NCBI GenBank assembly: GCA_964392445.1
Contig: CAYMPD010000016.1
Coordinates: 9,858-26,495 of the forward strand
Direction of reading: 5' to 3'
From: an uncultured archaeon
GTDB lineage: Archaea; Aenigmatarchaeota; Aenigmatarchaeia; CG10238-14
Length of the DNA stretch: 16,638 nucleotides
Shown: positions 1-12,641 of the stretch, piece after piece
Layout: every line of letters begins with the position of its first letter
How positions within the stretch are numbered: the first letter of the stretch is position 1
Notes under the pieces: model-generated
What the model was told of the DNA's origin: nothing
What the model saw: the letters and a program-made list of their open reading frames with translations, nothing else
Database searches by the model: none
Translations under genes and position numbers: made by a program

Positions 1-659
1 GACATCATATAAACAAATCTCATGTTTAAATTCAAGAAATCATTGTCTTTTTTATAATTTCCTATAATAGTGGGGATAAAATGTTTTTCTCCTTCTTGAA
101 TATCAGAATCGTAAAATGAAAATAAGGTTACAAGTTTCCATTTATTTCCCTTATTTGGTAAGTAGTGAATAAAGTCAAATAGAGGTAAATCTCCCGTAAT
201 TTTATCATTTTTAATAAGTTTTATTAGAAAATTTTCAAGGTTTTTATCCTTTCTTATATCTGAGAAACTAAGTAGAGCGGGCAACTCATCATATGAATTA
301 ACGCTTTTCTGGGGTATCATTAAATTCACTGCAGTTGTTATTTTATTTTCCTTTCTAACAGAGATAGAATGTAGTTTCTGGTTTATCTGATTTTTCACTG
401 CTGGTAATTTTGGTGTATATCCATATATGACATCTATTCCCTTTCTTTTTTTAGATTCAAAGAAATGAATTTTAGGTTTGGATCGAAATTTTTCAATTAA
501 AACTAAGTATTTTTCATTATCTTTGGAATATTCACATCCCAATCTAATTGGACTACTTTTTTTATAATAGTTTAAAAAGAAATTTCCAGGACGATATCCG
601 GAATCTTTCATATTCGGTAATGAACTTAAAATATCTGCTGCATTTTCATTGATTTCCAT
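1..659 (-). CDS. Hypothetical protein, >=219 aa, runs off the left edge of the window
   Basis: Hand translation of the minus strand from ATG at 659 is stop-free to the window edge (MEINENAADILSSLPNMKDSGYRPGNFFLNYYKKSSPIRLGCEY...FLNLNMRFVYMM). Divergent from hxsD across 39 bp. No family motif recognised. Not in the ORF track because no stop lies in the window. Confidence 0.8.
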   Translation of the reverse strand, partial: MEINENAADILSSLPNMKDSGYRPGNFFLNYYKKSSPIRLGCEYSKDNEKYLVLIEKFRSKPKIHFFESKKRKGIDVIYGYTPKLPAVKNQINQKLHSISVRKENKITTAVNLMIPQKSVNSYDELPALLSFSDIRKDKNLENFLIKLIKNDKITGDLPLFDFIHYLPNKGNKWKLVTLFSFYDSDIQEGEKHFIPTIIGNYKKDNDFLNLNMRFVYMM

Positions 660-698
660 AACTTAAGTATAAATTTTAAAAATTAAATTAATTAACTT
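660..698. promoter_or_regulatory. Very short bidirectional AT-rich promoter region, probably driving leaderless transcripts
   Basis: 39 bp between two divergent ATGs, almost entirely A/T, with TATA-like TATAAATT (668-675) and TTTAAAAA (675-682). No room for a Shine-Dalgarno leader. Confidence 0.45.
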
Positions 699-944
699 AT
701 GAGACCTATTGAAGTTTCAAGTAATAAATCAAGGATATTTTTTAATACCGAAATTTATGACATGTATCCAATCACAAAGGTTTGTGAGAGATTTGAAGAT
801 GTAGTTAAAATTAAATTAAGGCTCCTTAGGGATGAAGGTTTAATAGAAATTACATTAAAACCGAAAAGTTCCGACGATCTAGAAAAAACTACTTATGAGT
901 TTTGTAATCATGTTCTACATGAACAGACCATGGTGTTAAAGTGA
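699..944 (+). CDS. hxsD: HxsD-like protein (short form, 81 aa)
   Basis: F-N-T-E-I-Y near the N-terminus and I-T-L-K-P-K...E-F-C-N-H-V-L near the C-terminus match the HxsD pattern and align by eye with 12090-12641 (INPKIY...IKPK...DFNNELL). Two genes upstream of hxsB. Confidence 0.7.
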   Translation: MRPIEVSSNKSRIFFNTEIYDMYPITKVCERFEDVVKIKLRLLRDEGLIEITLKPKSSDDLEKTTYEFCNHVLHEQTMVLK

Positions 945-987
945 ATATAGAATTTTCCTCATCACCTAAAAAATATATTCACGGCTA

Positions 988-1848
988 TTGGATAAGACAG
1001 AAAGTCCAGAGGTAACAATAAGTAATACAAAGAAAGCATTGAAAAAAGCCGGTTTGGAGGTTGATTTGACCGACATAACAAATCATTATTTTCTTGAGAT
1101 TCCGGCCTATACTTGTGATCTTGTCAAAGGGAATTTTCATGGTCCTGTGGGGGGGGGTTCAAGGAGTTGGGGTAAGGGACTCACTGAAGAAGAGGTAAAA
1201 GTAAGTACTTTAATGGAGTTTATCGAAAGGAGGACTGGGAACTTGTATTTTATTGATAAAGAAAATACAATTCAGTCTAGTGAAACCGTTTTTGATAGTT
1301 ATGTCAACATAAAGGAAAAAAAGCTCCCTCTCGATCCTTTGATTTATCATAGTGAAGCTAAAGAAGATTATAAAAAACTCCGTAGTCTTATTTCAAAAAG
1401 TAAAATGCGTTATACTAAGTATTATTCTTTGAATGAGGAGAAATGGAAGTTTTTGCCAGATAAATGGCACCTCTTTTTCCATGGAACTAATGGTTTGGCC
1501 GCGGGGAACACACTAGAAGAAGTTCTACTTCAGGCAATGTATGAAGTAATAGAGCGACATAACACAGCAAAAACACTTGAAATTCCTGTAAAAAGATTGG
1601 ATATAAATGATAAAGGTATGGAAATATTACAGGACGTCATGCGTAAGTTCAGTAGAAAGGGAATAAAGGTCAGTCTTTTTGATATTACAACTGATATAAA
1701 AATTCCTACTATCTATTGTGCTTTTTTAGATGAAAACGAGAAAGGACAATTAAGATACGCTCAAGGATGGGGTACGATACTTAATGAAATAGAAAAGTGC
1801 GTGCTCAAATTACAAAAAAGGGATATGAGGTTTTATTTAAGAATATAA
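988..1848 (+). CDS. ycaO: YcaO-family ATP-dependent peptide backbone-modifying enzyme, main ORF; appears internally deleted and frameshifted
   Basis: Motifs SWGKGLTEEEVKVSTLMEFIERR and GTNGLAAGNTLEEVLLQAMYEVIERH match YcaO signatures. The usual RAxxExxQ motif after G-x-G-T is absent. The last ~11 residues (RDMRFYLRI) look like out-of-frame tail. The start is a TTG and may not be the true start (see findings). Confidence 0.85.
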   Translation: MDKTESPEVTISNTKKALKKAGLEVDLTDITNHYFLEIPAYTCDLVKGNFHGPVGGGSRSWGKGLTEEEVKVSTLMEFIERRTGNLYFIDKENTIQSSETVFDSYVNIKEKKLPLDPLIYHSEAKEDYKKLRSLISKSKMRYTKYYSLNEEKWKFLPDKWHLFFHGTNGLAAGNTLEEVLLQAMYEVIERHNTAKTLEIPVKRLDINDKGMEILQDVMRKFSRKGIKVSLFDITTDIKIPTIYCAFLDENEKGQLRYAQGWGTILNEIEKCVLKLQKRDMRFYLRI

Positions 1849-1973
1849 CATCAAAAGAACTCGATATCCCAGTTGTTTATGTTGTTTGTACTAACACAAT
1901 CAGAAATGAAAGCATGACAACACCTAGAAATGAACCTATAAAGCAGAGACTGTTGAACTTTTTATCGAATTGA
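1812..1973 (+). pseudogene. YcaO C-terminal segment displaced into another reading frame
   Basis: The frame starting at 1812 reads TKKGYEVLFKNITSKELDIPVVYVVCTNTIRNESMTTPRNEPIKQRLLNFLSN, stop TGA 1971-1973. This resembles the YcaO C-terminal G-x-E-V...[DN]-x-T...I-P-V-V element. One extra A in the A6 run at 1814-1819 would join it to the main ORF (...CVLKLQKKGYEV...). Confidence 0.65.
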
Positions 1974-2074
1974 TTTTTAAATGAATTTTAGATATTTATT
2001 TAATAGTTAATCACGCACTATGTTGAGTCCTGATCTAGAGTATACCTTGAAGATTTTGGGATTATACTAGTAAA

Positions 2075-2082
2075 TTTTTATA
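2075..2082 (+). promoter_or_regulatory. Putative archaeal TATA box for hxsB
   Basis: TTTTTATA ends 23 nt before the ATG at 2106, the spacing expected for a leaderless archaeal transcript. AT-rich background lowers significance. Confidence 0.4.
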
Positions 2083-2105
2083 GTTTAATTTTATCAATAT
2101 ATGTT

Positions 2106-3545
2106 ATGGCTTTTACCTATTCATCAGATTTTAAGGGTTATGTATTGAATAAGTATTCTAATATGAAATTAGATAAGGATAAAATTTTATTGACGACTAA
2201 TCACGGGGGTTGGGTAATTTTAGATAATGATGAGTTTGAACTTCTGAGGCATGGGAAAGTAGAAGAGGATATAAAATTATACAATCTCTTGAAACAGGAA
2301 GGCATAATAATGGGTGGAGATGAGATTGATAGAATATCTGGTTTTTATAAACAAAAATTAGCTCAATTGTCTACAGCTACAACATTGCATATAATTACTC
2401 CTACTTTGAGGTGTAATCATAAATGTGTTTATTGTTATGCAAAATCGAAACCTCCAGATGCTAAGGAATATGATATGGATGAAGATACTGCTAAAGAGGT
2501 AGTTGATTTTATTTTTCAATGCCCTTCTAAAGGCATCACTTTGGAATTTCAAGGTGGTGAACCATTATTGAATTATTCTATTATAAAATTCATCGTAGAT
2601 TATGCGAACAAATTAAACGAGGAGAAAAAGAAAAAAATAAATTTTAGATTAGTCACCAATTTAACCCTGATGGACGAAGAAAAGTTAGAATGGTTTGTGA
2701 ATAATGATATCGGCCTCCATACTTCACTTGATGGTCCTAAGGAGGTGCATAATAAGAATAGAAAATACTTAAGTGGTAAAGGAAGCTATGATATTGTCGT
2801 TGATTGGATTAAGAAATTGAAAGAGAAAAACATACATATTTCTTGTATGCCCACGGTAACCAAATATTCATTATCACACTGGAAGGATTTGATAGATGAA
2901 TATGTGAATTTGGGTTTAGATAATTTTTGGTTGAGGAAATTGAATGTAGGTGGATTTGCCGTAGATTATTGGGAAAAAATAGGTTACACTTCGGAAGAAT
3001 TTTTGAAATTTTGGAAGAAATCAATTGATTATATTTTCCAATTAAATAAAGAGGGCATAGTTATAATTGAGAATTCCTTAAGTATAATGCTGAGGAACAT
3101 ATTATTTTCAAAGAAATATAATCATTTTGTTTGTCTTACCTCACCTTGTGGTTGTGCTTGGGGACAAGTCAGTTATAACCATAAAGGGGATATATATACT
3201 TGTGACGAAGCAAGAAGTTTTGACGTTTTCAAATTAGGAAATGTTAAGGAAACTACTTATAAAGAATTATATTCTTCTTGGAAAGTGCTTGATATGGTAG
3301 ATTTAACAACGGGTTTATCTTTTGATTGCCAGTCCTGTGTTTATCATCCATTTTGTGGACCTTGTATAGTTGATGAGTATGGTGAGCATGGAAATATAAT
3401 CAAAAAACCCAATTCCTTTAATTGTAGAATAAAGAAAGGTATGTTAAGGTACATATTTGAGAAAATAATCTTAGATGAAGAGAAGTTTCAAATGGCTAAA
3501 GAGTGGGTTGGGTTGAAGAGTAAAAATATACCACATACACCTTAG
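2106..3545 (+). CDS. hxsB: His-Xaa-Ser system radical SAM/SPASM maturase HxsB (479 aa)
   Basis: LHIITPTLRCNHKCVYC (CxxxCxxC), ITLEFQGGEPLLN, TSLDGP...HNKNR, SPCG, YTCDEAR and a SPASM-type CQSCVYHPFCGPC...C. The N-terminal LLTTNHGGW extension is typical of HxsB. Context has HxsD-like and HxS-repeat genes. Confidence 0.88.
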   Translation: MAFTYSSDFKGYVLNKYSNMKLDKDKILLTTNHGGWVILDNDEFELLRHGKVEEDIKLYNLLKQEGIIMGGDEIDRISGFYKQKLAQLSTATTLHIITPTLRCNHKCVYCYAKSKPPDAKEYDMDEDTAKEVVDFIFQCPSKGITLEFQGGEPLLNYSIIKFIVDYANKLNEEKKKKINFRLVTNLTLMDEEKLEWFVNNDIGLHTSLDGPKEVHNKNRKYLSGKGSYDIVVDWIKKLKEKNIHISCMPTVTKYSLSHWKDLIDEYVNLGLDNFWLRKLNVGGFAVDYWEKIGYTSEEFLKFWKKSIDYIFQLNKEGIVIIENSLSIMLRNILFSKKYNHFVCLTSPCGCAWGQVSYNHKGDIYTCDEARSFDVFKLGNVKETTYKELYSSWKVLDMVDLTTGLSFDCQSCVYHPFCGPCIVDEYGEHGNIIKKPNSFNCRIKKGMLRYIFEKIILDEEKFQMAKEWVGLKSKNIPHTP

Positions 3546-4543
3546 TTTTTATTAGGGAATTTAATTACTCTATTAACCATTTTTTCATAAAAGTCATGCT
3601 TACCTTCATTTCTTAGATTTATTATTTTGTTTAGAAAGTCATCTAATGAGCGATTATCAATTATAGTATCTTTAATTTCTAAGTATTTTGGAATTGGGCC
3701 AGCTAGAATATCTAATAGATTCCCGTCATATTTCTCGTTTAGATAGAACCTAACTACGTCTTTTATCCATTCATTTGGCATTGTTCTACCAACAATTTTA
3801 AAATAATCTGTGATTTTCTTGTATTTCTTAAGATCTTCTGGTCTTATCCACCCTGATTTCAATATAGTACTTGGATTTCTCGCCCTTTCTCTAATACATA
3901 TTTCAGAAGCAAAATCTATGAAGTCTTCACTGGATCTTGAAAGATGAGAAGTATAGTTATTGTGTACAATTCTATAGGGACATTTCCACAAACAACCTTC
4001 ATTAACCATTAATCTAATTTTTAAGTTTGTCCCCTCTTTTATTTTTTTGAGCATATTGAAATCTCTATTAATATCATTAGGAACTATTGTCGTTGCTCCC
4101 AAATTTTCATAATATTTTGCTTTTTCTAATGAATCAATACAACAAAAAGCTGATGCTATGATTTCCATATCTTTAAATTCTTTTTTTGTTTTTTGTATGT
4201 AGAGAGGATTGGAAAAAATCGCCCCATTCACCCCAATTTTTCTCATTTTTTTAATAAAGTTTAAAGTTCTTGAAATGAAAGTTACATTATACCAGTCTAA
4301 ACCTTCACAGGTTGAGTTAAACGCCAAATCTACTTTGTAAGAGTATTTTTTACAGAATTTAATCACTTTTCTGATGTGGTCGGGATTTATTTTTTTTACA
4401 TCTCTCCCAGAACCGAATATATCCTGAGGAGCTGAAAGGTAAATCCCCTCTATTCTATTTTTTCCTCCTCTATTTAATTGAACTATCTTTTCCAAGGTTT
4501 CAAAATCATTGTTATATGGAATGGAAAAATTTAATTCGGGCAT
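3542..4543 (-). CDS. U32 peptidase-like family Fe-S protein, copy A (333 aa); candidate hydroxylase
   Basis: NSTC, DINRD, LMVNEGCLWKCPYRIVH, WIRPEDL and FKIVGR fit the U32 family with its Cys cluster and K-x-x-G-R motif. Its stop overlaps the hxsB stop by 4 nt (TTAG 3542-3545). Confidence 0.8.
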   Translation of the reverse strand: MPELNFSIPYNNDFETLEKIVQLNRGGKNRIEGIYLSAPQDIFGSGRDVKKINPDHIRKVIKFCKKYSYKVDLAFNSTCEGLDWYNVTFISRTLNFIKKMRKIGVNGAIFSNPLYIQKTKKEFKDMEIIASAFCCIDSLEKAKYYENLGATTIVPNDINRDFNMLKKIKEGTNLKIRLMVNEGCLWKCPYRIVHNNYTSHLSRSSEDFIDFASEICIRERARNPSTILKSGWIRPEDLKKYKKITDYFKIVGRTMPNEWIKDVVRFYLNEKYDGNLLDILAGPIPKYLEIKDTIIDNRSLDDFLNKIINLRNEGKHDFYEKMVNRVIKFPNKN

Positions 4544-4603
4544 AGCATCAAAAGGTTAATTGATATTAATAAACATAAGTTTTTCCTTTTAAATATAGGA
4601 TAT
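4544..4603. promoter_or_regulatory. Divergent promoter region between U32-A and radical SAM 1
   Basis: 60 bp. Minus-strand TTTATTAA (4566-4573) ends 22 nt before the U32-A ATG. AGGA precedes the plus-strand ATG at 4604. Confidence 0.45.
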
Positions 4604-5596
4604 ATGTCTGGTAGAATTGACCTTCAACTTGGATATTCTTGCAATAGTAATTGTATCCATTGTTTTAATTTGGATATTATTAGGGAATTAAGAGGTAGGG
4701 GTAAAAGCCTGGATAAAAGTATGAGTGAAATAAAAAAAATAATACTTAAAGCTAAGGAAGAAGGTATTGGGGAAGTGGTTCTAACAGGTGGTGAACCTAC
4801 TATCAGGAAAGACTTTTTGGAAATACTTAGGTTTATTAAGGAGAATGAATTTAAAATTAGTTTACAAACTAACGGGAGAATGTTTTCTTCGCAGGACTTT
4901 ACTAAAAAAGTTTCCTCGATAGCCCCAGATATAGGACTTTTGATACCCATTCATCATGTGAATCCTAAAATTCATGATTCGGTGACAAGAGTAAAGGGAT
5001 CTTGGGCTGAAACCATGAAAGGTATAAATTACCTCAAGAAATATGAAATTGATAATATCTTTTTCAAGACAATAATTTTAAAACAGAATTATAGAAATTT
5101 AATAGATATAACAGAATATGCCAATACAATTGGGATAAATAATATTGATTTTGCATTTTTGGAAGGTAGTGGTCGGGCTAGAAAGAATTGGTTTAAAATA
5201 GCCCCACATTATTCAGAAATAGCTCATCCACTAAAGGACTCAATAAAGCTTGGTAATAAATGGGGGATGAATATCAGTGTTTACGACGTCCCTTTTTGTT
5301 TTTTAAAAGGATTTGAGTCGCATATATCAGAGATAAAAAGTTATGTGATTCCATATTTAAGCGGAAATTTCCCGAAAAGAATATCATCAAGTAGGAGTGA
5401 TAATATAATTGAGGAACTTGTTTTAAAGAGGAGAAAGAAAATAGAAAAATGTACATCATGTAAGTATTTTAAGGTATGTCTTGGTGTATGGTCAGAATAC
5501 ATAGAGTTTTATGGAGGTAGTGAGTTTAAACCAGTTAAGGGTGAAAAAATAAGCAATATTAGAGATTTAAGAACTCTTTTAGAAGAATCAAATTAA
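4604..5596 (+). CDS. HxsC-like radical SAM protein, paralogue 1 (330 aa)
   Basis: GYSCNSNCIHC, LTGGEPTIR, QTNGRMF, HDSVTRVKGSW, LEGSGRARKN, VPFC and C-terminal CTSCKYFKVCLGVW...EFKP. Confidence 0.85.
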   Translation: MSGRIDLQLGYSCNSNCIHCFNLDIIRELRGRGKSLDKSMSEIKKIILKAKEEGIGEVVLTGGEPTIRKDFLEILRFIKENEFKISLQTNGRMFSSQDFTKKVSSIAPDIGLLIPIHHVNPKIHDSVTRVKGSWAETMKGINYLKKYEIDNIFFKTIILKQNYRNLIDITEYANTIGINNIDFAFLEGSGRARKNWFKIAPHYSEIAHPLKDSIKLGNKWGMNISVYDVPFCFLKGFESHISEIKSYVIPYLSGNFPKRISSSRSDNIIEELVLKRRKKIEKCTSCKYFKVCLGVWSEYIEFYGGSEFKPVKGEKISNIRDLRTLLEESN

Positions 5597-5639
5597 GGAT
5601 TAAATAAATGAAAATCGTTTTGATAAATGGGATGGTTGA

Positions 5640-6605
5640 ATGAAATCAATGACTATGGTATTAGGTTATACATGTAATAATAATTGCATTTTTTGTATAT
5701 TTGGAGATCAGAAACATAAGGGTATAAGGAAAAGTGCAGAGGTAAAAAAAAGGCTAAAAGATATGAGGAAACAGACCTCTAGTATAAATTTTACAGGTGG
5801 TGATCTGACAATCAGGAAGGATTTTTTTGATATTTTGGATTTTGTAAAACAATTGAATTTCTCGGATGTTTCTATTGAAACTAACGGGAGAATGTTCTCT
5901 TCACGGATTTTTACTAAGCGTGTTTTAGCAATTTTCCCTAACATGAGATTTTCTATAAGTGTGTATCACATTAACCCTGAAATTCATGATTCAGTAACAA
6001 GGGTAAAAGGGTCTTGGGATCAGACTGTAAATGGGATAAAGAACATTATAAGCCATGAGAATAATAACATAACAATAGCTTTTGTTGTCGGGAAGTTCAA
6101 TTATAAAATATTACCTTCGGCTGTGGATTTTTTTTCTGATCTGGGAGTTCAAATTTTAGATTTTATTTTGATAAGAAAAGAAGGTGCTGCAAAAGATAAT
6201 TTCGATGATATTGGTGTAAGGATTAGTAAAGTTGTTCCATATTTAACCAAGGCTTTTGATAAGTTGGATAAAACCAATTTAACCGTGAGATCTTATGGAT
6301 TTCCTTTCTGTACTTTAAAGGGGTATGAAAGACATGTTCAAGAATTAGGGTTGATAGAGGCTACATTGGAGGGGCGGAAATCAATTTTCGATTTTGATGA
6401 TCACATTCAAGATCAATTTAGAGAAAGGTTAAGGGGGAGAAGATCTAAATTCAAGAAATGTATGAATTGTAAGTATTACAATATCTGTGAGGGGGTTTGG
6501 ACCCATTATGTTGAGACTTTTGGAAAGGACGAATTTAATCCAGTCCGTGGAGAGAAAATACAAACAAAGAACGAATTAGAGAAATTATTAAAGAACTCTA
6601 GATGA
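5640..6605 (+). CDS. HxsC-like radical SAM protein, paralogue 2 (321 aa)
   Basis: GYTCNNNCIFC, FTGGDLTIR, ETNGRMF, HDSVTRVKGSW, FPFC and CMNCKYYNICEGVW...EFNP. Confidence 0.85.
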   Translation: MKSMTMVLGYTCNNNCIFCIFGDQKHKGIRKSAEVKKRLKDMRKQTSSINFTGGDLTIRKDFFDILDFVKQLNFSDVSIETNGRMFSSRIFTKRVLAIFPNMRFSISVYHINPEIHDSVTRVKGSWDQTVNGIKNIISHENNNITIAFVVGKFNYKILPSAVDFFSDLGVQILDFILIRKEGAAKDNFDDIGVRISKVVPYLTKAFDKLDKTNLTVRSYGFPFCTLKGYERHVQELGLIEATLEGRKSIFDFDDHIQDQFRERLRGRRSKFKKCMNCKYYNICEGVWTHYVETFGKDEFNPVRGEKIQTKNELEKLLKNSR

Positions 6606-6607
6606 TT

Positions 6608-7555
6608 TTAAAATATCTCTTTTGCTAAATTATTACAATAATGGCACTTGGAACAATTTTTATCACAGCTGGTGACTTTATCAAAAAAATCATATGGAAC
6701 TTTTTTGAAGAACTCTGGCATAGAGTCATTTGTTTTCTCCATTAAATAACTTTTGGTTTGTTCTAATATGTTTTTTGTTGGTAATGTTCTACCTTCTATC
6801 TTAAAAAAATTAGTTATTTTCTTATATTTCTTAAGATCCTCTGGTCTTATCCAGGGTGATTTTAGTAATTGTGATGGATCTAGACTCTCTATTTTTCTAC
6901 ATATACCGAATGGATCAAATTCCTCTTCATAGCTTTCTATTGAATAATGAGAAGTGTAATTTTTATGAAATATTCTAAAAGGGCACCTGTAAAGACAAAC
7001 TTCATCTACAAGAAGTTTTAATTCACATCCAACTTCTTTAATGTTTTTTAATTTTTTTAGATTTCTATTAATATCTCTATCTGGAGTTATAGTGTCGGTA
7101 CCAAACTTTTTAAAAAATAAAGCTCTCTGAACAGAAGCTATCTCGGATATTACCGATGTTGTAATTTTTGTATCTGGACATTCTTGCCTAATTTTTTGGA
7201 GGTATAAAGGATTAGCTATGGTGACAGAATCTAATCCCTCTCTTCTCATTCTTTTAATGAAATTTACGGTTTTACTGACTCTAGTTGGTTCGTACCATTC
7301 TATACCTTCGCAAATTGAGTTCAAGATTAAGTTGACCTCTATACCATTATTATGACAAAATTTTATAACATCGATTAAGTCCTTTTTCGTGAATTTGGTT
7401 GTAACCCTACATGAACCAGAAATTTTTTGGGGGCCCGACAAATATATCTCTTTAATTTCATTCCCATTTATTTTTTTTACCTTTATGAGTTCTTCTAGTA
7501 GTTTGAAATCATTGTTATATGGGACAGACAAGTTTATATTTACCAAGTTGAACAC
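6608..7555 (-). CDS. U32 peptidase-like family Fe-S protein, copy B (~312-315 aa); candidate hydroxylase
   Basis: NSIC, DRDINRN, LLVDEVCLYRCPFRIFH, WIRPEDL, FKIEGR and a C-terminal CDKNCSKCHYC. The start may be TTG at 7546 rather than GTG 7555: it gives MVNINLSVPYNNDF, colinear with MPELNFSIPYNNDF of copy A, and is preceded by SD-like AGGTG. Confidence 0.8.
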   Translation of the reverse strand: MFNLVNINLSVPYNNDFKLLEELIKVKKINGNEIKEIYLSGPQKISGSCRVTTKFTKKDLIDVIKFCHNNGIEVNLILNSICEGIEWYEPTRVSKTVNFIKRMRREGLDSVTIANPLYLQKIRQECPDTKITTSVISEIASVQRALFFKKFGTDTITPDRDINRNLKKLKNIKEVGCELKLLVDEVCLYRCPFRIFHKNYTSHYSIESYEEEFDPFGICRKIESLDPSQLLKSPWIRPEDLKKYKKITNFFKIEGRTLPTKNILEQTKSYLMEKTNDSMPEFFKKVPYDFFDKVTSCDKNCSKCHYCNNLAKEIF

Positions 7556-7688: not shown

Positions 7689-8765
7689 TTGAGAATGGTT
7701 GACATGTTAGAACACTTCACTGCCTTAGATTTGGTAAGAATTTCTATTTTTACTATTTTTGGTTCTATCATTTCTTATTATGATATTAAAGAAAAGAAAA
7801 TATATAATAAGCATCTATTAGTCATGTTTATTTTAGGGCTTGTTTTATTTTTTGCTGGCCTTAAATTTTTCTTAATACCAGTTTTTCTAATAAATTTCTT
7901 TCTTTCTCTTTTTTTTGGATTCTTGTTTTGGAAAATGAAAATTTGGAAACCAGGTGATGCTAAACTATTTTCTATATGCTCGATATATTTACCGTTTAAG
8001 TTCTATTCTTCTTTTATAACTTCTCAAATTATTCTGACGAATTTATTCTTAGTGGCGTTCTTTGTATGGGTTATACCTGTTTTAATAAGGACAGATAAAA
8101 ATGCAAAAAAAAAGTCTATTAAACAGGTTTTCAATATAAAGAATATATTTGAGGTATTTTTAACTATTTTCGGTTTATTTTATTTCATAGGACAATTTTT
8201 CACTCTTTTTGACCTTAATTTAATGTACGAATTTGGATATTTCATTACTTTACTTTTTACTTTTTTTCTTTTTGTATTGATTAAGAAGATTTTGCCAGAT
8301 AAAACATTTTATTTTCTGTTATTCTTAACTATAATTAGGTTTTTTGTAGATCCTTCAATATTTGAAATAAATTTTTGGCTGGATTCTTTCTTGAGTATGA
8401 TGGTTATTTTAATTGCTTCTTGGATTGGAGAAATAGCTTATTATATATCTTATGAGAAAAAGAAGGTATCTAATTTGGAAGAAGGGGATATCCCAGTTGG
8501 TTTTGTTACAGAGGGAAAGAGATTAAGAGATTTTGAGAAGTTTATCGAACAAAATTTTGATAATAAAGAAAGAATATTAGAAGATGGTTTAAATGATAAG
8601 GAAATTGGCAAGATCAATAATTTTGAAAGGATAAAATTTATGTTTGTTAAAGAATATATAAGCTTTGCACCATGGTTAATATTATCAACAATTCTGGCAT
8701 CTGTATTGGGTACAGATATTTTCCTATTTTTCATATCCCAGATTTATAGGAGATTTTATGAATGA
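7689..8765 (+). CDS. A24-family (prepilin/preflagellin, FlaK/PibD-like) intramembrane aspartic peptidase
   Basis: Multi-pass membrane protein with first catalytic-Asp motif SYYDIKEKKIYN (D32), second motif WKPGDAKL (D90), a soluble C-terminal insert VSNLEEGDIP and a terminal ISFAPWL helix. The likely start is ATG 7695 or 7704 rather than TTG 7689. Confidence 0.8.
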   Translation: MRMVDMLEHFTALDLVRISIFTIFGSIISYYDIKEKKIYNKHLLVMFILGLVLFFAGLKFFLIPVFLINFFLSLFFGFLFWKMKIWKPGDAKLFSICSIYLPFKFYSSFITSQIILTNLFLVAFFVWVIPVLIRTDKNAKKKSIKQVFNIKNIFEVFLTIFGLFYFIGQFFTLFDLNLMYEFGYFITLLFTFFLFVLIKKILPDKTFYFLLFLTIIRFFVDPSIFEINFWLDSFLSMMVILIASWIGEIAYYISYEKKKVSNLEEGDIPVGFVTEGKRLRDFEKFIEQNFDNKERILEDGLNDKEIGKINNFERIKFMFVKEYISFAPWLILSTILASVLGTDIFLFFISQIYRRFYE

Positions 8766-10617
8766 TCGGTTTCAAACTAAGTATATATTGGTAATTCTAG
8801 TGGTGGGAATCACCATATCTTCCCTTATTTTGCGATCACCTATGAAAATAGGTGATCATATTTTCGAAAAATTAAGTTCCACCTGGCCTATGTTCAGAGG
8901 TGATATATACAGGACAGGGAATTTTGATGGTCTACAAATTGATGAATTTCCTATTTTGATGGATTATGATAAGAGCTGTAAAGATTGTTTAATCTTCAAA
9001 ATTTATGGTAATATAATGGAAAATGAAAGTAAAATAACTGCAAACTTTTCTATAGGGAGAAAAATGAGTTCTATTGCTAAGAAAGTCCCTTTAAATTTAA
9101 GTAGATCTAAGATCGAAGATGAGATAGTCACAATTCAAGTGATAAGATATCAAATATCTGATAAAAACATACTAAAGCCTGAGAAATGGGGTAATTATAT
9201 AATGGACTTTCAGAATGGGTCGGGAACAAGAGAACTCTACTTCCATGAAGGGGAGTATTTTAGTGTGTCACTGGATTTCTTAAATTTTATAGAAGAATCC
9301 GGTTTTCAGGAAAAAGATAATTTTATATTGTCTGACAATGGATTTGACTTTTGGATTTTTGATGGAAGAATTGAAAATAATTTAGATAAAAAATACTTGC
9401 TGGGGAAACCGGATGAAGATTATTTGGATGAAGATTCCATATCTTTATCAAGATCTTCGTCTCGTTTACAAATGCTCACTATTGGGAGTCAAGCTAACGA
9501 GAAAAATAAACAGGATTTTTTTTCAGACGATAATGTTTTTGACCCTTCCCCGATTTTCATAGATTTGAATTCAGATGGTAATGATGAAATAATAACCTAT
9601 TTCAAAAATACTGTTTATAATAATACACAGAAGACCAGAACTTGGGAAGATATGATACTGGCGATTGAATATAAAGAAAATCCAACTCTAATGGAAAGTT
9701 TGGAATTCGGTAATGTCCCTTATATAATGAGTTGGAGATTCATATTATCCGATGAAGTACATACTTCTTTTTCGGCTGGGGATATCAGTTTGGATGGGTC
9801 CCCGGAAATTATTTTCGGCTCTGACGATGGGAATTTATATGTTTTAGATAATAATGGAAATTTGAGATGGAAATTTGACTCTCGGGGAAAAATTAGAAGT
9901 ACCCCCGCAATAGGTGATCTCGATTTTGATAATAAATATGAAATTATTTTCGGCTCTGACGATGGGAATCTATATGTTTTAGACAATAAAGGAAATTTGA
10001 AATGGAAATTTGAGACAGAAAGTATTATAAGATCGAGCCCATTATTTTTTTTGGAAAATTCATCTTCTATAATTACTTTCGGTTCTGACGACGGAAATTT
10101 ATACCTTCTAGATAATAGGGGAAATTTAAGATGTAAGTATGAAACTAGCGGTAAAATAAGAAGCTCCCCTCTGTATTACAATGGAAGTATAATTTTCGGT
10201 TCTGACGACGGTAATATTTATATATTAAACACGGAATGCAACTTAATTAAAAAATATAGAACTAATGATATGGTAAGAAGCTCCCCCTCGTTATTTAATG
10301 GCGAATTTACTATTGGATCAAAAGATGGTAATATTTATTATTTTGATTATAATCAGATTACTAAAAGAATGTTAAATGCGTCGATAATATCAATTCCTGT
10401 GGTTTTAGGGAGCAAATCTTTAGTTTCTACTATTGAGGGGGACATATATTTAATTAATTCCAGATCTGATGAATTACTATTAGATTTGGAAAATGTAAAT
10501 AATTTTTCTTGTTCACCTGCTCTGGGAAAAGTGGAAGAGGGGATAGTATTTTCTTGTTTTTTTATTAAGGAGAGTGCTGATACTAAATATTCGGGTTTTT
10601 TTATTCATACTATATAA
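8758..10617 (+). CDS. Membrane-anchored PQQ-like/FG-GAP beta-propeller repeat protein (619 aa)
   Basis: N-terminal hydrophobic helix (YILVILVVGITISSLIL), WPMFRGDIYRTG motif, five FGSDDGNLY-type blades with RS[ST]P ends, and Ca-binding-like loops DLNSDGNDE, DISLDGSPE, DLDFDNKYE. Overlaps the upstream gene by 8 nt and the downstream gene by 1 nt (TAATG). Confidence 0.8.
   Translation: MNDRFQTKYILVILVVGITISSLILRSPMKIGDHIFEKLSSTWPMFRGDIYRTGNFDGLQIDEFPILMDYDKSCKDCLIFKIYGNIMENESKITANFSIGRKMSSIAKKVPLNLSRSKIEDEIVTIQVIRYQISDKNILKPEKWGNYIMDFQNGSGTRELYFHEGEYFSVSLDFLNFIEESGFQEKDNFILSDNGFDFWIFDGRIENNLDKKYLLGKPDEDYLDEDSISLSRSSSRLQMLTIGSQANEKNKQDFFSDDNVFDPSPIFIDLNSDGNDEIITYFKNTVYNNTQKTRTWEDMILAIEYKENPTLMESLEFGNVPYIMSWRFILSDEVHTSFSAGDISLDGSPEIIFGSDDGNLYVLDNNGNLRWKFDSRGKIRSTPAIGDLDFDNKYEIIFGSDDGNLYVLDNKGNLKWKFETESIIRSSPLFFLENSSSIITFGSDDGNLYLLDNRGNLRCKYETSGKIRSSPLYYNGSIIFGSDDGNIYILNTECNLIKKYRTNDMVRSSPSLFNGEFTIGSKDGNIYYFDYNQITKRMLNASIISIPVVLGSKSLVSTIEGDIYLINSRSDELLLDLENVNNFSCSPALGKVEEGIVFSCFFIKESADTKYSGFFIHTI
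9805..10013 (+). repeat. Intragenic direct repeat: two 74-bp copies (9805-9878 and 9940-10013), 135-bp period, encoding propeller blades
   Basis: The first 30 bp (gaaattattttcggctctgacgatgggaat) are identical and there are 4 mismatches over 74 bp by manual comparison. Confidence 0.9.
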
Positions 10618-11600
10618 TGGGAAGGATTATGGAAGTTGAGGGCTTGAATGTAAATTTTGGACATTCCTGTAATAATAATTGTATTCATTGTTTAATAGGA
10701 CAAGAAATGAGGACAAAATATAGAGACCGGACTACAGAAGAAATCAAAGAACTTCTTTTAGAGGCCAGTAAAAAGACAAATTACACTATATTTATAGGAG
10801 GGGAAGCTACACTAAGAAGGGATTTTTTAGAATTACTTGAATTTGCAAAAAGTTTAGGATTGAATATACATTTAGAAACAAATGGTAGAATGTTTTCTAT
10901 AAAAAGTTTTGCGAGGAGAGTATTTCAAATAGATCCTAATCTTGATATTGTGATGAGTTTTCATCACACTTGCCCTAATATACAGGACAAAATCACGGGT
11001 GTTAAGGGCTCTTTTAAACAAAGTGTTAAAGGTATGGAAAATATCAGAAAATTTGGAAAAGGAGGAGATGGGGAATTAGGAGTGATTTGTGTCATTACTA
11101 AATTAAATTATAAAAACCTATCAGAACTTGTAACTTTTTTGAATAGTAAAAGTATTGATCAATTAGATTTTACTTTAATGAGAATTGGGGGAGACGCTCT
11201 TGAAAATTTTGATAAAATATTTGTTCCAATAAAGGAGATTCAGCCTTACTTGTTTGAGGCTATAAAAAAATCAAGGAAATTGGATATAAGAACAAAAACC
11301 TATGGCTTTCCTTTCTGTACCATAAAAGGGTATGAAAAGTATGCGGTTGAAGTTGGTTTTATTGAAAGTTTGATTAAGAAAAAGAAGTTTGTATTTTGGG
11401 AGTTAAATGAAAGAATTGAGTGGCATAAAACGAGATTAGAGATAAAAACCAAATTATCTAGGTGCCTAGACTGTAAATATTATAATATCTGTGAAGGTCT
11501 TTGGAAAGAATATATGTTATTGGAACCTGAAATATTAAAACCAATTAAAGGTAGAAGATTGAAAAGCCAGAAAGAGACATCGAAATTACTTGGAAAGTGA
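10617..11600 (+). CDS. HxsC-like radical SAM protein, paralogue 3 (327 aa)
   Basis: GHSCNNNCIHC, FIGGEATLR, ETNGRMF, QDKITGVKGSF, FPFC and CLDCKYYNICEGLW...LKP. Confidence 0.85.
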   Translation: MGRIMEVEGLNVNFGHSCNNNCIHCLIGQEMRTKYRDRTTEEIKELLLEASKKTNYTIFIGGEATLRRDFLELLEFAKSLGLNIHLETNGRMFSIKSFARRVFQIDPNLDIVMSFHHTCPNIQDKITGVKGSFKQSVKGMENIRKFGKGGDGELGVICVITKLNYKNLSELVTFLNSKSIDQLDFTLMRIGGDALENFDKIFVPIKEIQPYLFEAIKKSRKLDIRTKTYGFPFCTIKGYEKYAVEVGFIESLIKKKKFVFWELNERIEWHKTRLEIKTKLSRCLDCKYYNICEGLWKEYMLLEPEILKPIKGRRLKSQKETSKLLGK

Positions 11601-11617
11601 TAAAATCCAATCTTACA

Positions 11618-12010
11618 TCAACCGTAATTTAGTACAATATAGTTCTTATGACTAGCATTGGCACTTCTATGGTTGTTTCCATGTCCCCATCCAGCAGACC
11701 CACTACCAGAATTGCCACTACCATGATTACTTGCGTCACAATGGCTAGCTGGAACACCATCAGCTGATGAATGCGCTTCAGAGCTCCAATGCCCCCACCC
11801 ACCCCTCGTACCACTATTATGCGCTTCCGAATGCCCCGGATCACAATGATCATGTTTAGAAGAAATATCAGCGCCCATACCTTTTGAGAACAGATTCAAT
11901 GCTTCAAATCCAGCAAACATTGCACCCATGGAAATCAACGCTTGCTTTGAAGCACCCCCTGATTCTCCAAGTATGAATGATTTTAATTCTTTTTTTATTT
12001 TGGGTAACAT
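11618..12010 (-). CDS. hxsA: His-Xaa-Ser repeat precursor peptide (HxsA-like, ~130 aa)
   Basis: Basic leader and hydrophobic segment, then a G/S/H-rich core with 11 His, including HNS, HWS, HSS, HGS, HRS, HGN, HKN and two HCD. The ORF track starts at TTG 12031. ATG 12010 (MLPKIKK) is preferred because minus-strand TTTATTAA (12035-12042) ends 24 nt upstream; ATG 12019 is also possible. Confidence 0.8.
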   Translation of the reverse strand: MLPKIKKELKSFILGESGGASKQALISMGAMFAGFEALNLFSKGMGADISSKHDHCDPGHSEAHNSGTRGGWGHWSSEAHSSADGVPASHCDASNHGSGNSGSGSAGWGHGNNHRSANASHKNYIVLNYG

Positions 12011-12089
12011 ACTATACATAATTATATTCAATTATTAATAAATTTATCTAGGTAATAATATTTGCAGGTAGGAATTGGAGGTTCATTGA
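12011..12089. promoter_or_regulatory. Divergent promoter region between the precursor and hxsD2, with SD for hxsD2
   Basis: Minus-strand TATA-like TTTATTAA at 12035-12042. Plus-strand GGAGGT at 12077-12082, 7 nt before ATG 12090. Confidence 0.55.
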
Positions 12090-12641
12090 ATGAAAGAAGC
12101 TAAAAAAATAGATGTAAATAAAACTAAAAATGAAGTTATAATCAAAATAAATCCGAAAATATATCCCTTACCAATAGTTTATCAAACATCTGATGTTTTC
12201 ATAGATAAATCATATGTTTTCCTGGATGGTGATCCCGAAGAGGAAATAGAAGTAATGATAAAACCCAAAGAGAAAGGAGTTGATTTAAAAAAGATAGCTG
12301 GTGATTTCAATAATGAATTATTGAATTATTCTGCATATTTCATAAGATCTCAAATGAACAAAGACTTCAGACATATTATATTGGAGAAAGCACTTTCTAC
12401 TGTAGAGAGGGGAGGTAGCAAGATAAAAGAAAAAACTCAGGAAAAGCAAAAGATAGACATAGGACTTAAAGTTCCGTTGTATAAAGCAGAAGAATCCTCC
12501 GAAAATAGAGCTGACAATGAAGAATTCGATGAGGATGAAATAAGAAAAGTCTGGGAAGAACAAAAAGGTGCAATAAAAGATAAGTCTAAAAGAACTAAAA
12601 CCAAGGCCAACAAAGAGGACAGCAATGAAAAGAAAGATTAA
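12090..12641 (+). CDS. hxsD: HxsD-like protein (long form, 183 aa, charged C-terminal tail)
   Basis: INPKIYPL...DKSYVFLDGDPEEEIEVMIKPK...DFNNELLNY...IILEKAL fits HxsD. The acidic/basic tail contains EIRKVWEE. Adjacent to the precursor and overlapping the next radical SAM gene by 17 nt. Confidence 0.8.
   Translation: MKEAKKIDVNKTKNEVIIKINPKIYPLPIVYQTSDVFIDKSYVFLDGDPEEEIEVMIKPKEKGVDLKKIAGDFNNELLNYSAYFIRSQMNKDFRHIILEKALSTVERGGSKIKEKTQEKQKIDIGLKVPLYKAEESSENRADNEEFDEDEIRKVWEEQKGAIKDKSKRTKTKANKEDSNEKKD

What the first reader, a model, noticed from the sequence alone, without database searches (positions are those of the whole stretch)
3542..7555. Two U32-family proteins embedded among peptide maturases: candidate O2-independent peptide hydroxylases
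Seen: two U32 paralogues with conserved Cys (E-x-C-L-x-x-C-P...H) flank radical SAM 1 and 2. Established: characterised U32 members RlhA, TrhP and UbiU/UbiV are Fe-S proteins for O2-independent hydroxylation of rRNA, tRNA and ubiquinone precursors rather than proteases. Inference: here they may hydroxylate the peptide (e.g. His, Asp or Asn beta-carbon), replacing the 2OG-Fe(II) oxygenases seen in aerobic RiPP clusters. I know of no demonstrated peptide substrate for this family.
Basis: partly seen in the sequence, partly recalled or inferred. Interest (0 to 1): 0.78.

Follow-up and report, generated by a model that had tools for sequence, protein, structure and literature searches.

The report
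U32 iron-sulfur enzymes in peptide cluster
Three copies of an iron-sulfur "U32" enzyme sit inside a peptide-modifying gene cluster of a tiny archaeon, next to a private pathway for prephenate, the compound that known U32 enzymes use as their oxygen source, so they are good but untested candidates for the first oxygen-free hydroxylases that act on a peptide.

Summary
Observation confirmed. Window 3542-4543(-) and 6608-7555(-) encode two U32 paralogues (46% identical) that flank two HxsC-like radical SAM genes. Both carry E-x-C-L-x-x-C-P...H. A third paralogue lies just upstream of the window.

They belong to a large, distinct U32 subfamily, far from RlhA, TrhP, UbiU and UbiV. It has four invariant Cys in a non-canonical spacing. 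Most members also have a C-terminal CX3CX2CX2C motif, which copy A has lost.

All 17 Hxs-linked members sampled are compatible with one clade. Bacterial members are stand-alone.

New evidence for the hydroxylase reading:
- A chorismate mutase plus six-gene shikimate operon abuts the cluster.
- The bin has no prephenate dehydratase, prephenate dehydrogenase or anthranilate synthase.
- Other loci repeat the link between this U32 subfamily and chorismate mutase or DAHP synthase.
- The sister clade sits beside mcrA in methane archaea.

Against:
- Three other Hxs-U32 genomes have no prephenate route.
- The contig is a compositional outlier.
- There is no biochemistry.
- Known U32 chemistry targets aromatic rings, so His or Trp rings are likelier targets than beta-carbons.

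The scan has noted U32-shikimate and U32-radical-SAM links before on other DNA. Verdict: interpretation partly supported; a new variant of a known kind.

The parts
3542..4543 (-). U32-A, 333 aa. Invariant Cys at C79, C184, C188 and C216. Lacks the C-terminal CX3CX2CX2C motif of the family.
   Evidence: AF2 model pLDDT 90.4. Best fold match is 5d88.
6608..7555 (-). U32-B, 315 aa. Cys at C82, C187, C191 and C219, plus a C-terminal C297/C301/C304/C307 motif. Has a short internal deletion shared with its orthologue in L006.
4604..5596 (+). HxsC-like radical SAM 1. Divergently transcribed from U32-A, with a 60-bp gap.
   Evidence: An HxsC-like gene lies directly beside a U32 gene in every Hxs-U32 locus examined.
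5640..6605 (+). HxsC-like radical SAM 2. Convergent with U32-B.
2106..3545 (+). HxsB radical SAM/SPASM maturase. Its end overlaps the end of U32-A by 4 nt.
   Evidence: TIGR03978, 437 bits against a cut-off of 370.
11618..12031 (-). HxsA-like precursor, rich in His, Trp and Cys. The proposed substrate.
   Evidence: KHDHCDPGH, G-W-(G/x)-H and HSSADGVP are conserved in four clusters.
3..659 (-). N-terminal 219 aa of a conserved unknown 320-aa protein (unk320). It is co-transcribed with U32-C and is a recurrent neighbour of these U32 genes.
   Evidence: Model pLDDT 87; C-terminal domain is Mog1/PsbP-like, Z about 8-9.
988..1848 (+). YcaO-domain protein of the same cluster (context).
699..944 (+). 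HxsD-like small protein (context).
   Evidence: NF038315, 47.9 bits against a cut-off of 41.

Best explanation
U32-A and U32-B, together with U32-C just upstream of the window, are iron-sulfur TIM-barrel enzymes of a distinct U32 subfamily. In this island they most likely act as prephenate-dependent, O2-independent oxidases or hydroxylases on the His/Trp/Cys-rich HxsA-like precursor. They would work in the cytoplasm alongside the HxsC-type radical SAM enzymes, before the prepilin-type peptidase removes the leader. Prephenate would come from the adjoining chorismate mutase plus shikimate operon. By analogy with UbiU-UbiV, the enzyme would oxidise an aromatic side chain by two electrons through its [4Fe-4S] cluster, and prephenate would decarboxylate to deliver hydroxide, giving a ring-hydroxylated His or Trp (+16 Da) and phenylpyruvate. 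Copy A has lost the second Cys motif and may pair with B or C as UbiV pairs with UbiU. Shown here: family membership, the fold, the invariant Cys, the conserved synteny with HxsC-like genes, the neighbouring prephenate pathway, and the lack of other prephenate consumers in the bin. Inferred: Fe-S binding, prephenate use, the peptide as substrate, hydroxylation as the reaction, the target residue, and heteromer formation.
For: 1) U32 membership and fold: PF01136 above cut-off. AF2 model pLDDT 90.4 with best fold match 5d88, E 4e-13, TM 0.73 by target. The K-I-x-G-R motif is shared with E. coli U32s.
2) Four invariant Cys (C79, C184, C188, C216) across 39 family members. Three lie where the canonical U32 Cys lie and one lies far upstream, as in UbiV (PMC6747719).
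3) Conserved synteny: in all Hxs-U32 loci (L004, L006, L007, L019, L020, L041, L106, L110, L113) a U32 gene sits beside an HxsC-like radical SAM gene. 15 of 17 such U32s form a clade (92/94). One clade for all 17 is not rejected (p-AU 0.43).
4) Prephenate supply: chorismate mutase, DAHP synthase, DHQ synthase, shikimate dehydrogenase, shikimate kinase, EPSP synthase and chorismate synthase lie in one operon directly upstream. The 94.9%-complete bin has no PDT, PDH_N or Chorismate_bind, although all 14 control genomes do. Four of five other chorismate-synthase-positive genomes of the phylum do have PDT.
5) None of 60 relatives has this U32 or chorismate synthase. Four of them, and a second locus in this bin, carry minimal Hxs clusters without U32.
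6) Independent links between this subfamily and the shikimate pathway: chorismate mutase inside the L004/L005 Hxs-U32 cluster; a chorismate mutase / B12-radical-SAM / MqnA-like / U32 operon in G088; DAHP synthase directly adjacent in four dispersed bacterial branches.
7) Capacity for protein substrates: the sister clade lies directly after mcrG-mcrA (L088), beside mtr (L086) or beside AtwA-like ATPases (L094). It occurs in ANME-1, ANME-2c and ANME-2d, whose MCR carries 6- or 7-hydroxy-Trp made by an unknown enzyme (PMC12413448).
8) Prephenate is the established O donor for UbiU-UbiV and is required for RlhA and TrhP (PMC10990095, PMC5727448, PMC6599085).
Against: - No biochemical data exist for any member of this subfamily.
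- The Cys spacing (C...CX3CX27C) is not the canonical CX6CX15CX3/4C. NCBIfam TrhP and UbiU models do not hit U32-A, B or C. hhalign to UbiU is weak (E 1e-3, N-terminal half only) and to UbiV gives nothing.
- Three other Hxs-U32 genomes (G061, G063, G064=G080) have no detectable chorismate synthase or CM_2.
- Across 351 genomes of the phylum, U32 (3 genomes) and chorismate synthase (6 genomes) overlap only in this bin.
- No dehydroquinate dehydratase was found in the bin.
- Contig C16 has 31.3% GC against 34.2 +/- 1.0 and is a tetranucleotide outlier. It may be an acquired island or a mis-binned contig, which would weaken the 'no downstream consumer' argument.
- Most family members are stand-alone bacterial genes, often beside molybdenum oxidoreductases, so the ancestral substrate is not a peptide.
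- The canonical E. coli HXS system needs no U32 (PMC13128918).
Confidence: 0.45

Rival explanations
1. The U32s are Fe-S oxidases that assist the HxsC-type radical SAM enzymes without inserting oxygen. They might perform a two-electron oxidation or dehydrogenation of the peptide, or dispose of electrons. Prephenate would then be irrelevant or used differently.
For: Each U32 is paired with an HxsC-like gene. The only characterised Hxs modification is +8 Da (+C, -4H), not +16 (PMC13128918). Family members elsewhere sit beside electron-transfer modules: XDH-type FAD/2Fe-2S/Moco subunits and DMSOR-type enzymes with 4Fe-4S proteins, including in L007, L020 and L041. Three Hxs-U32 genomes lack a prephenate route.
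Against: It does not explain the chorismate mutase plus shikimate operon beside the cluster, or the chorismate mutase inside L004 and G088. All characterised U32 Fe-S proteins are tied to hydroxylation (PMC10990095).
Confidence: 0.2
2. The U32s act on a substrate other than the peptide: an RNA base, or a small molecule derived from chorismate or prephenate. They travel with the Hxs genes only as part of one mobile island.
For: Known U32 substrates are RNA and quinone precursors. Most of the subfamily is unlinked to peptide genes. The island is compositionally foreign. G088 has a U32 in a non-Hxs operon with an MqnA-like protein.
Against: Gene-by-gene interleaving with HxsB and HxsC-like genes is conserved at 40-60% protein identity across at least nine loci from several archaeal lineages. 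The Hxs-linked copies form their own clade. None of 60 relatives needs such an enzyme for housekeeping. The sister clade is embedded in MCR operons, which points to protein substrates.
Confidence: 0.15
3. The shikimate operon is ordinary aromatic amino-acid metabolism, either of a mis-binned organism or with unrecognised downstream enzymes. Its position next to the U32s would then be coincidence, and the U32 function stays open.
For: C16 is a GC and tetranucleotide outlier. No dehydroquinate dehydratase was found, so recognition of pathway genes in this bin is imperfect. Across the phylum the co-occurrence of U32 and chorismate synthase is not significant.
Against: The operon begins with chorismate mutase and has no PDT or PDH, whereas G217 has CS-CM-PDT in a row. 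Links between this U32 subfamily and CM_2 or DAHP synthase recur independently in L004, G088 and four bacterial branches.
Confidence: 0.12
4. They are true peptidases, as the family name suggests, and trim the precursor.
For: Some U32 members (PrtC, HP0169) were reported as collagenases (PMC5727448).
Against: The cluster has its own A24 prepilin-type peptidase at 7689-8765. The invariant residues are four Cys, not a protease triad. No catalytic mechanism for U32 proteolysis is established.
Confidence: 0.04

Closest known systems
UbiU-UbiV (E. coli YhbU/YhbV), the O2-independent, prephenate-dependent ubiquinone hydroxylase
   Same: U32 TIM-barrel proteins. Each subunit binds a [4Fe-4S] cluster through four Cys. 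UbiV, like these proteins, has its first Cys far upstream of the other three. Paralogues work as a heteromer, and prephenate is the O donor (PMC6747719, PMC10990095). Here there are several paralogues, four invariant Cys and a neighbouring prephenate pathway.
   Different: Sequence relation is very distant: hhalign E 1e-3 to UbiU and none to UbiV, with a branch of 3.85 substitutions per site in the tree. Cys spacing is C...CX3CX27C. Most members have an extra C-terminal CX3CX2CX2C motif. There is no UbiT/SCP2 partner. The context is a radical SAM peptide cluster in an archaeon, not quinone synthesis.
RlhA (YdcP) and TrhP (YegQ), RNA 5-hydroxypyrimidine synthases
   Same: Same superfamily. They depend on Fe-S and prephenate, and hydroxylate an aromatic ring carbon (PMC5727448, PMC6599085).
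   Different: NCBIfam TrhP and UbiU models give no hit to U32-A, B or C. There is no DUF3656 and there are no C-terminal RNA-binding parts. A separate TrhP/UbiU-like U32 does occur in two related Hxs clusters (L007:11112-12092 and L113:2223-3218), but not in this window.
Mk0906 of Methanopyrus kandleri (PDB 5d88), the only solved U32 structure
   Same: Best sequence and fold match in the PDB.
   Different: Mk0906 lacks the CX3C pair: the aligned segment has no Cys. Its function is unknown.
HXS antiphage system of E. coli (HxsD-HxsB-HxsC-HxsA)
   Same: An HxsB equivalog, HxsC-like and HxsD-like proteins, and a His-rich precursor that is processed and exported (PMC13128918).
   Different: The canonical system has no U32, YcaO, prepilin peptidase or beta-propeller. 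Its known modification is +8 Da. Here there are four HxsC-like paralogues below the equivalog cut-off and three U32s.

Membership tests
Peptidase U32 superfamily (PF01136) | Score above the Pfam gathering cut-off | tested here: met
   37.5, 32.1 and 30.2 bits against 22.4 for U32-A, B and C. The match is partial for A and B: profile positions 3-86 of 233.
Peptidase U32 superfamily (PF01136) | (beta/alpha)8 barrel like Mk0906 (5d88) | tested here: met
   AF2 pLDDT 90.4, pTM 0.91. Foldseek top hit 5d88, E 4e-13, TM 0.73 by target. The next hits are generic TIM barrels at E about 1e-7.
U32 Fe-S O2-independent hydroxylases (RlhA, TrhP, UbiU, UbiV) | Four strictly conserved Cys able to hold a [4Fe-4S] cluster | tested here: met
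   C79, C184, C188 and C216 are invariant in 39 and in 25 aligned members. Cluster binding itself was not tested.
U32 Fe-S O2-independent hydroxylases (RlhA, TrhP, UbiU, UbiV) | Canonical CX6CX15CX3/4C spacing | tested here: not met
   The spacing is C(79)...C(184)X3C(188)X27C(216). C184, C188 and C216 lie in the region of canonical Cys 1-3, and the fourth is replaced by the upstream C79, much as in UbiV (PMC6747719).
U32 Fe-S O2-independent hydroxylases (RlhA, TrhP, UbiU, UbiV) | Membership of one of the four characterised subfamilies | tested here: not met
   No NCBIfam TrhP or UbiU hit. In the tree the whole subfamily is separated from the four E. coli proteins by a branch of 3.85.
U32 Fe-S O2-independent hydroxylases (RlhA, TrhP, UbiU, UbiV) | Dependence on prephenate | not testable with these tools
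   Genomic proxy only: an adjacent chorismate mutase plus shikimate operon without PDT, PDH or TrpE in the bin, and links to CM_2 or DAHP synthase in other loci. The link is absent in three other Hxs-U32 genomes.
U32 Fe-S O2-independent hydroxylases (RlhA, TrhP, UbiU, UbiV) | A hydroxylated product | not testable with these tools
   Needs mass spectrometry of the matured precursor.
His-Xaa-Ser (HXS) system | HxsB equivalog | tested here: met
   TIGR03978, 437 bits against a cut-off of 370.
His-Xaa-Ser (HXS) system | HxsC equivalog | tested here: not met
   TIGR03977, 126 and 123 bits against a cut-off of 267.9. The best model is HxsC4 (NF038332), at 139 and 131 bits against 500. These are HxsC-like only.
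His-Xaa-Ser (HXS) system | U32 as a system component | tested here: not met
   The HXS paper never mentions U32. Minimal archaeal Hxs clusters in four relatives and on contig C26 of this bin lack U32. The U32s are an add-on to the expanded form.

The most novel reading that the evidence does not exclude
This archaeal U32 subfamily is a family of oxygen-free hydroxylases that act on aromatic residues of proteins and peptides. The Hxs-linked clade would hydroxylate His or Trp of a radical-SAM-matured surface peptide, using prephenate from a private shikimate and chorismate-mutase operon in an otherwise biosynthesis-poor DPANN archaeon. The sister clade beside mcrA would make the 6- or 7-hydroxy-tryptophan of methyl-coenzyme M reductase. 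That would give the U32 family its first protein substrates and name a long-missing MCR-modifying enzyme.
Probability: 0.3. Interest if true: 0.88.

Novelty: new variant of a known kind. Interest (0 to 1): 0.72.

Why it matters
How anaerobes put hydroxyl groups on proteins and peptides without O2 is largely unknown. The only known U32 substrates are RNA bases and ubiquinone precursors, and no in vitro assay exists for any U32 enzyme. A small peptide substrate with its own gene cluster and its own prephenate supply would be a tractable test system for the proposed prephenate-as-oxygen-donor chemistry. It would add a new kind of tailoring enzyme to radical-SAM peptide pathways. Through the sister clade beside mcrA, it offers a candidate for the unassigned hydroxy-tryptophan of methane-metabolising enzymes. 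It would also be a rare case of a DPANN archaeon keeping a multi-step biosynthetic pathway only to feed a cofactor-like co-substrate.

Tried and rejected
- Housekeeping RNA hydroxylase: rejected. There is no other U32 in the bin, none in 60 relatives, and no grouping with RlhA or TrhP.
- Genome-wide co-occurrence of U32 with chorismate synthase in the phylum: 3 and 6 of 351 genomes, overlapping only in this bin, so not used as support. CM_2 is present in 25 of 351 and in 2 of the 3 U32-positive genomes, which is suggestive only.
- General enrichment of shikimate genes within 10 kb of bacterial members: not above a rough expectation. Only immediate adjacency to DAHP synthase or DHQ synthase stands out.
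- Identifying the conserved 320-aa partner: Pfam, NCBIfam and the ESM Atlas gave nothing. The fold search gave only a generic Mog1/PsbP-like C-terminal domain at Z about 8-9.
- hhalign to UbiV: no alignment.
- Literature searches for U32 in RiPP or biosynthetic clusters, or in DPANN: nothing relevant.
- Not used: the search of protein representatives.


Full report
**1. What is in the window**

The window is G000:C16:9858-26495, from a 1.2-Mb, 54-contig bin that is 94.9% complete. Its phylum sample includes the genome of an assembly labelled Candidatus Aenigmarchaeota (G080 and locus L007 lie on the same 221,408-bp contig). It is therefore a DPANN-type archaeon.

The gene order is as follows:

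| Coordinates | Strand | Gene |
|---|---|---|
| 699-944 | + | HxsD-like |
| 988-1848 | + | YcaO |
| 2106-3545 | + | HxsB (TIGR03978, 437 bits against a cut-off of 370) |
| 3542-4543 | - | U32-A |
| 4604-5596 | + | HxsC-like radical SAM 1 |
| 5640-6605 | + | HxsC-like radical SAM 2 |
| 6608-7555 | - | U32-B |
| 7689-8765 | + | A24 prepilin-type peptidase |
| 8758-10617 | + | beta-propeller protein |
| 10617-11600 | + | HxsC-like radical SAM 3 |
| 11618-12031 | - | His/Trp/Cys-rich precursor |
| 12625-13623 | + | HxsC-like radical SAM 4 |

**2. Checking the observation**

- Both U32 ORFs pass Pfam PF01136, although only the first third of the profile is matched.
- Both match the solved U32 protein Mk0906 (5d88).
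- They are 46% identical to each other.
- A third paralogue, U32-C, lies about 0.3 kb upstream of the window at C16:8521-9522(-). It is co-transcribed with an unknown 320-aa gene whose first 219 codons are window 3-659(-).
- The bin holds no other U32.

**3. What kind of U32**

A search of 5.8 billion proteins returned 230 relatives. Many are full-length at about 40% identity, from Dehalococcoidia, Acidobacteriota, Desulfobacterota and archaea. A scan of species genomes found at least 574 loci, also covering Coriobacteriales, Methanosarcinales, ANME and Bathyarchaeota.

Conserved residues in 39 aligned members:
- Four Cys are invariant: C79, C184, C188 and C216 (U32-A numbering).
- Also invariant are R47, N76, E182, R191, N196, H200 and the K-I-x-G-R motif.
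- At least 90% of members have a C-terminal CX3CX2CX2C motif. U32-B and U32-C keep it; U32-A has lost it.

An AlphaFold model of U32-A is confident (pLDDT 90.4, pTM 0.91). Its best solved match is 5d88 (E 4e-13), and the rest are generic TIM barrels.

In a local-pair alignment with E. coli UbiU, UbiV, TrhP and RlhA, C184, C188 and C216 fall in the region of canonical Cys 1-3, and the upstream C79 replaces the fourth. The canonical CX6CX15CX3/4C spacing is therefore not met. UbiV deviates in a comparable way (PMC6747719).

Other evidence that this is a separate subfamily:
- NCBIfam's TrhP and UbiU models do not hit these proteins.
- hhalign to UbiU is marginal, and to UbiV gives nothing.
- In a tree, the whole subfamily is separated from the four E. 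coli proteins by a very long branch.

They are a distinct U32 subfamily, not housekeeping RNA hydroxylases.

**4. Is there an Hxs-linked clade?**

I ran tblastn with all cluster proteins against 88 genome loci and 80 metagenome loci. Hxs genes lie next to the U32 only in these archaeal loci:
- L004/L005, L006 and L007/L008 (Aenigmarchaeota)
- L019
- L020 (Altiarchaeales IMC4)
- L024 and L041 (Nanohaloarchaea)
- L106/L107, L110 and L113

In each locus with enough flank, an HxsC-like radical SAM gene lies directly beside a U32 gene.

Results of a careful maximum-likelihood tree:
- 15 of 17 Hxs-linked sequences form a clade (support 92/94). It contains an A-type group (96/92) and a B-type group.
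- U32-C and its Altiarchaeales orthologue are unresolved at the base.
- Bacterial sequences form one clade (100/100), and methanogen/ANME sequences form another (100/100).
- Holding all 17 together costs 3.6 log-likelihood units and is not rejected (p-AU 0.43).

Distribution in related genomes:
- None of 60 relatives (same genus to same order) has this U32.
- Only 3 of 351 genomes of the phylum have it.
- Four relatives, and contig C26 of this same bin, carry a minimal cluster of A24 peptidase, HxsD, HxsB and HxsA, with no U32 and no HxsC paralogues.

The U32s therefore belong to an expanded, patchily distributed form of the system.

**5. The prephenate link (new)**

Directly upstream on the same contig lies a + strand operon:

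| Gene | Coordinates on C16 |
|---|---|
| chorismate mutase | 914-1366 |
| DAHP synthase | 1372-2271 |
| DHQ synthase | 2268-3362 |
| shikimate dehydrogenase | 3355-4170 |
| shikimate kinase | 4174-4716 |
| EPSP synthase | 4691-5950 |
| chorismate synthase | 5962-7050 |

It is followed by a small unknown gene, a DUF483 gene, and then U32-C and unk320 on the other strand.

- The bin has no prephenate dehydratase, prephenate dehydrogenase or chorismate-binding (anthranilate/isochorismate synthase) domain. All 14 control genomes have each of them.
- None of 60 relatives has chorismate synthase.
- In the phylum sample only 6 of 351 genomes have it. Four of the five others also have prephenate dehydratase, and G217 has CS-CM-PDT in a row.

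As assembled, this pathway therefore stops at prephenate, next to three U32 genes. Prephenate is the demonstrated oxygen donor for UbiU-UbiV and is required for RlhA and TrhP (PMC10990095, PMC5727448, PMC6599085).

The link recurs elsewhere:
- The L004/L005 Hxs-U32 cluster has a 73-aa chorismate mutase (TIGR01808, 62.6 bits against 52.15) overlapping the start of its unk320 gene.
- G088 has no chorismate synthase. Its operon runs chorismate mutase, two B12-radical-SAM genes, an NMT1/MqnA-like gene, and a divergent member of this U32 subfamily.
- In bacteria, DAHP synthase is the immediate neighbour in L009, L034, L120 and L134/L139, which lie on four separate branches. DHQ synthase is the neighbour in L049.

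**6. Caveats on the prephenate argument**

- Three other genomes with Hxs-linked U32s (G061, G063, G064=G080) show neither chorismate synthase nor CM_2. They would have to import the co-substrate, or they do not need it.
- No dehydroquinate dehydratase of either type was found in the bin.
- Contig C16 has 31.3% GC against 34.2 +/- 1.0 for the bin and is the second most deviant of 30 long contigs in tetranucleotide usage. This fits an acquired island, but mis-binning cannot be excluded. The 'no downstream enzyme' statement holds for the bin, not provably for the organism.

**7. Hints on substrate and partners**

Four expanded-type precursors share a leader and the core motifs KHDHCDPGH, G-W-(G/x)-H, HSSADGVP and a C-terminal YG. 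Known U32 substrates are aromatic ring carbons, and the proposed mechanism starts with oxidation of an aromatic ring (PMC10990095).

Following a lead from earlier notes of this scan, I checked the methanogen/ANME sister clade myself:
- In Methanoliparum (L088) the U32 gene follows mcrG-mcrA and precedes a DUF5402 gene and a B12-radical-SAM gene.
- In Methanolobus (L086) it precedes DUF5402 and mtrEDC.
- In ANME-1 (L094) a U32 pair and a small gene precede two double-ABC ATPases of the AtwA type.

ANME-1 MCR carries 7-hydroxy-Trp, and ANME-2c and ANME-2d MCRs carry 6-hydroxy-Trp. The paper reporting the ANME-2 structures does not mention U32 (PMC12413448). This does not prove anything, but it shows that the nearest archaeal relatives are also embedded among protein-modification genes.

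Other recurrent companions:
- The unknown 320-aa protein. Its model is confident (pLDDT 87), but it resembles only the generic Mog1/PsbP fold.
- DUF483.
- A SAM methyltransferase in L006 and L106.
- A second, TrhP/UbiU-like U32 in L007 and L113.
- DMSO-reductase-type molybdoenzymes in L007, L020 and L041.
- For bacterial stand-alone members, xanthine-dehydrogenase-type FAD, 2Fe-2S and Moco subunits in 15-23 loci. These may be the missing electron acceptors of the reaction.

**8. Verdict**

It remains a genomic inference.

I rate the full chain (Fe-S enzyme, prephenate-dependent, acting on the Hxs precursor, hydroxylating an aromatic side chain) at about 0.45. The main rivals are a non-hydroxylating oxidase role and a non-peptide substrate.

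No paper in the searchable library links U32 proteins to peptide clusters.

Earlier notes of this scan reported U32 pairs with shikimate operons and inside radical-SAM peptide clusters in bacteria, and the U32-DUF5402 module in methane archaea. The theme has therefore been seen before on other DNA by this scan, but not in the literature I could search.

Noticed in passing
L013 (G000:C16) 914-7050, upstream of the window: A chorismate mutase plus six shikimate-pathway genes form one operon in a 1.2-Mb DPANN bin. The bin lacks prephenate dehydratase, prephenate dehydrogenase, anthranilate synthase and both types of dehydroquinate dehydratase. None of 60 relatives has chorismate synthase.
   Followed up: yes
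L013 8521-9522(-) and 9554-10516(-); window 3-659(-): A third U32 paralogue (U32-C) is co-transcribed with a conserved unknown 320-aa protein. That protein recurs beside Hxs-linked U32 genes in L004, L007, L019, L024, L106, L110 and L113. Its model is confident, but only a generic Mog1/PsbP-like C-terminal domain is recognisable. A DUF483 gene (L013 7734-8519) recurs in L106.
   Followed up: partly
L088 7469-12753; L086 10001-14099; L094 1266-7043: The methanogen/ANME sister clade of this U32 subfamily lies directly after mcrG-mcrA, before DUF5402 and a B12-radical-SAM gene, or beside mtrEDC, or beside AtwA-like double-ABC ATPases. It is a candidate for the unassigned 6-/7-hydroxy-tryptophan of MCR.
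   Followed up: partly
L010, L012, L037, L071, L072 and about 20 other bacterial loci; L007 13093-15171, L020, L041, L065: Stand-alone bacterial members of the subfamily recurrently neighbour xanthine-dehydrogenase-type FAD, 2Fe-2S and Moco subunits. Others, including three Hxs-U32 loci, neighbour DMSO-reductase-type molybdoenzymes with 4Fe-4S partners. These may be electron acceptors for the U32 reaction.
   Followed up: partly
L186 (G088:C1) 1-4839 and L187 8468-9130: An operon of chorismate mutase, two B12-radical-SAM genes, an NMT1/MqnA-like binding-fold protein and a divergent U32 (split over two contig ends), in a genome without chorismate synthase. 25 of 351 genomes of the phylum have CM_2 but only 6 have chorismate synthase, so orphan chorismate mutases are common there.
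   Followed up: partly
L007 11112-12092; L113 2223-3218: A second, unrelated-lineage U32 that is closer to TrhP and UbiU (NF011996 E 8e-27; PF01136 E 3e-26) sits in two other Hxs-U32 clusters. U32 proteins were therefore recruited to these clusters more than once.
   Followed up: partly
L006 8300-8992; L106 12626-13039: A class I SAM methyltransferase lies inside two related Hxs-U32 clusters. It could O-methylate a newly made hydroxyl group, as happens in ubiquinone and (c)mo5U pathways.
   Followed up: no
G000:C26:1-2900 (L104); L100-L103, L105: The same bin has a second, minimal Hxs cluster (A24 peptidase, HxsD-like, HxsB, small precursor), as do several relatives. These have no U32 or HxsC paralogues, and their precursors have a different core.
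   Followed up: partly
whole contig G000:C16: The contig has 31.3% GC against 34.2 +/- 1.0 for the bin and is the second most deviant long contig in tetranucleotide usage. It is either an acquired island or possibly mis-binned.
   Followed up: partly
L019 1257-2255: One of two tandem U32 genes in this archaeal MAG has a single in-frame stop codon in an otherwise intact reading frame. This is either a sequencing error or a recent pseudogene.
   Followed up: no
window 699-1848 and 2106-3545: The YcaO here scores best against the McrA-glycine thioamidation family (TIGR03266, E 3e-26, far below cut-off). The cluster's tool set (YcaO, radical SAM, U32) therefore parallels the enzymes that modify MCR.
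   Followed up: no
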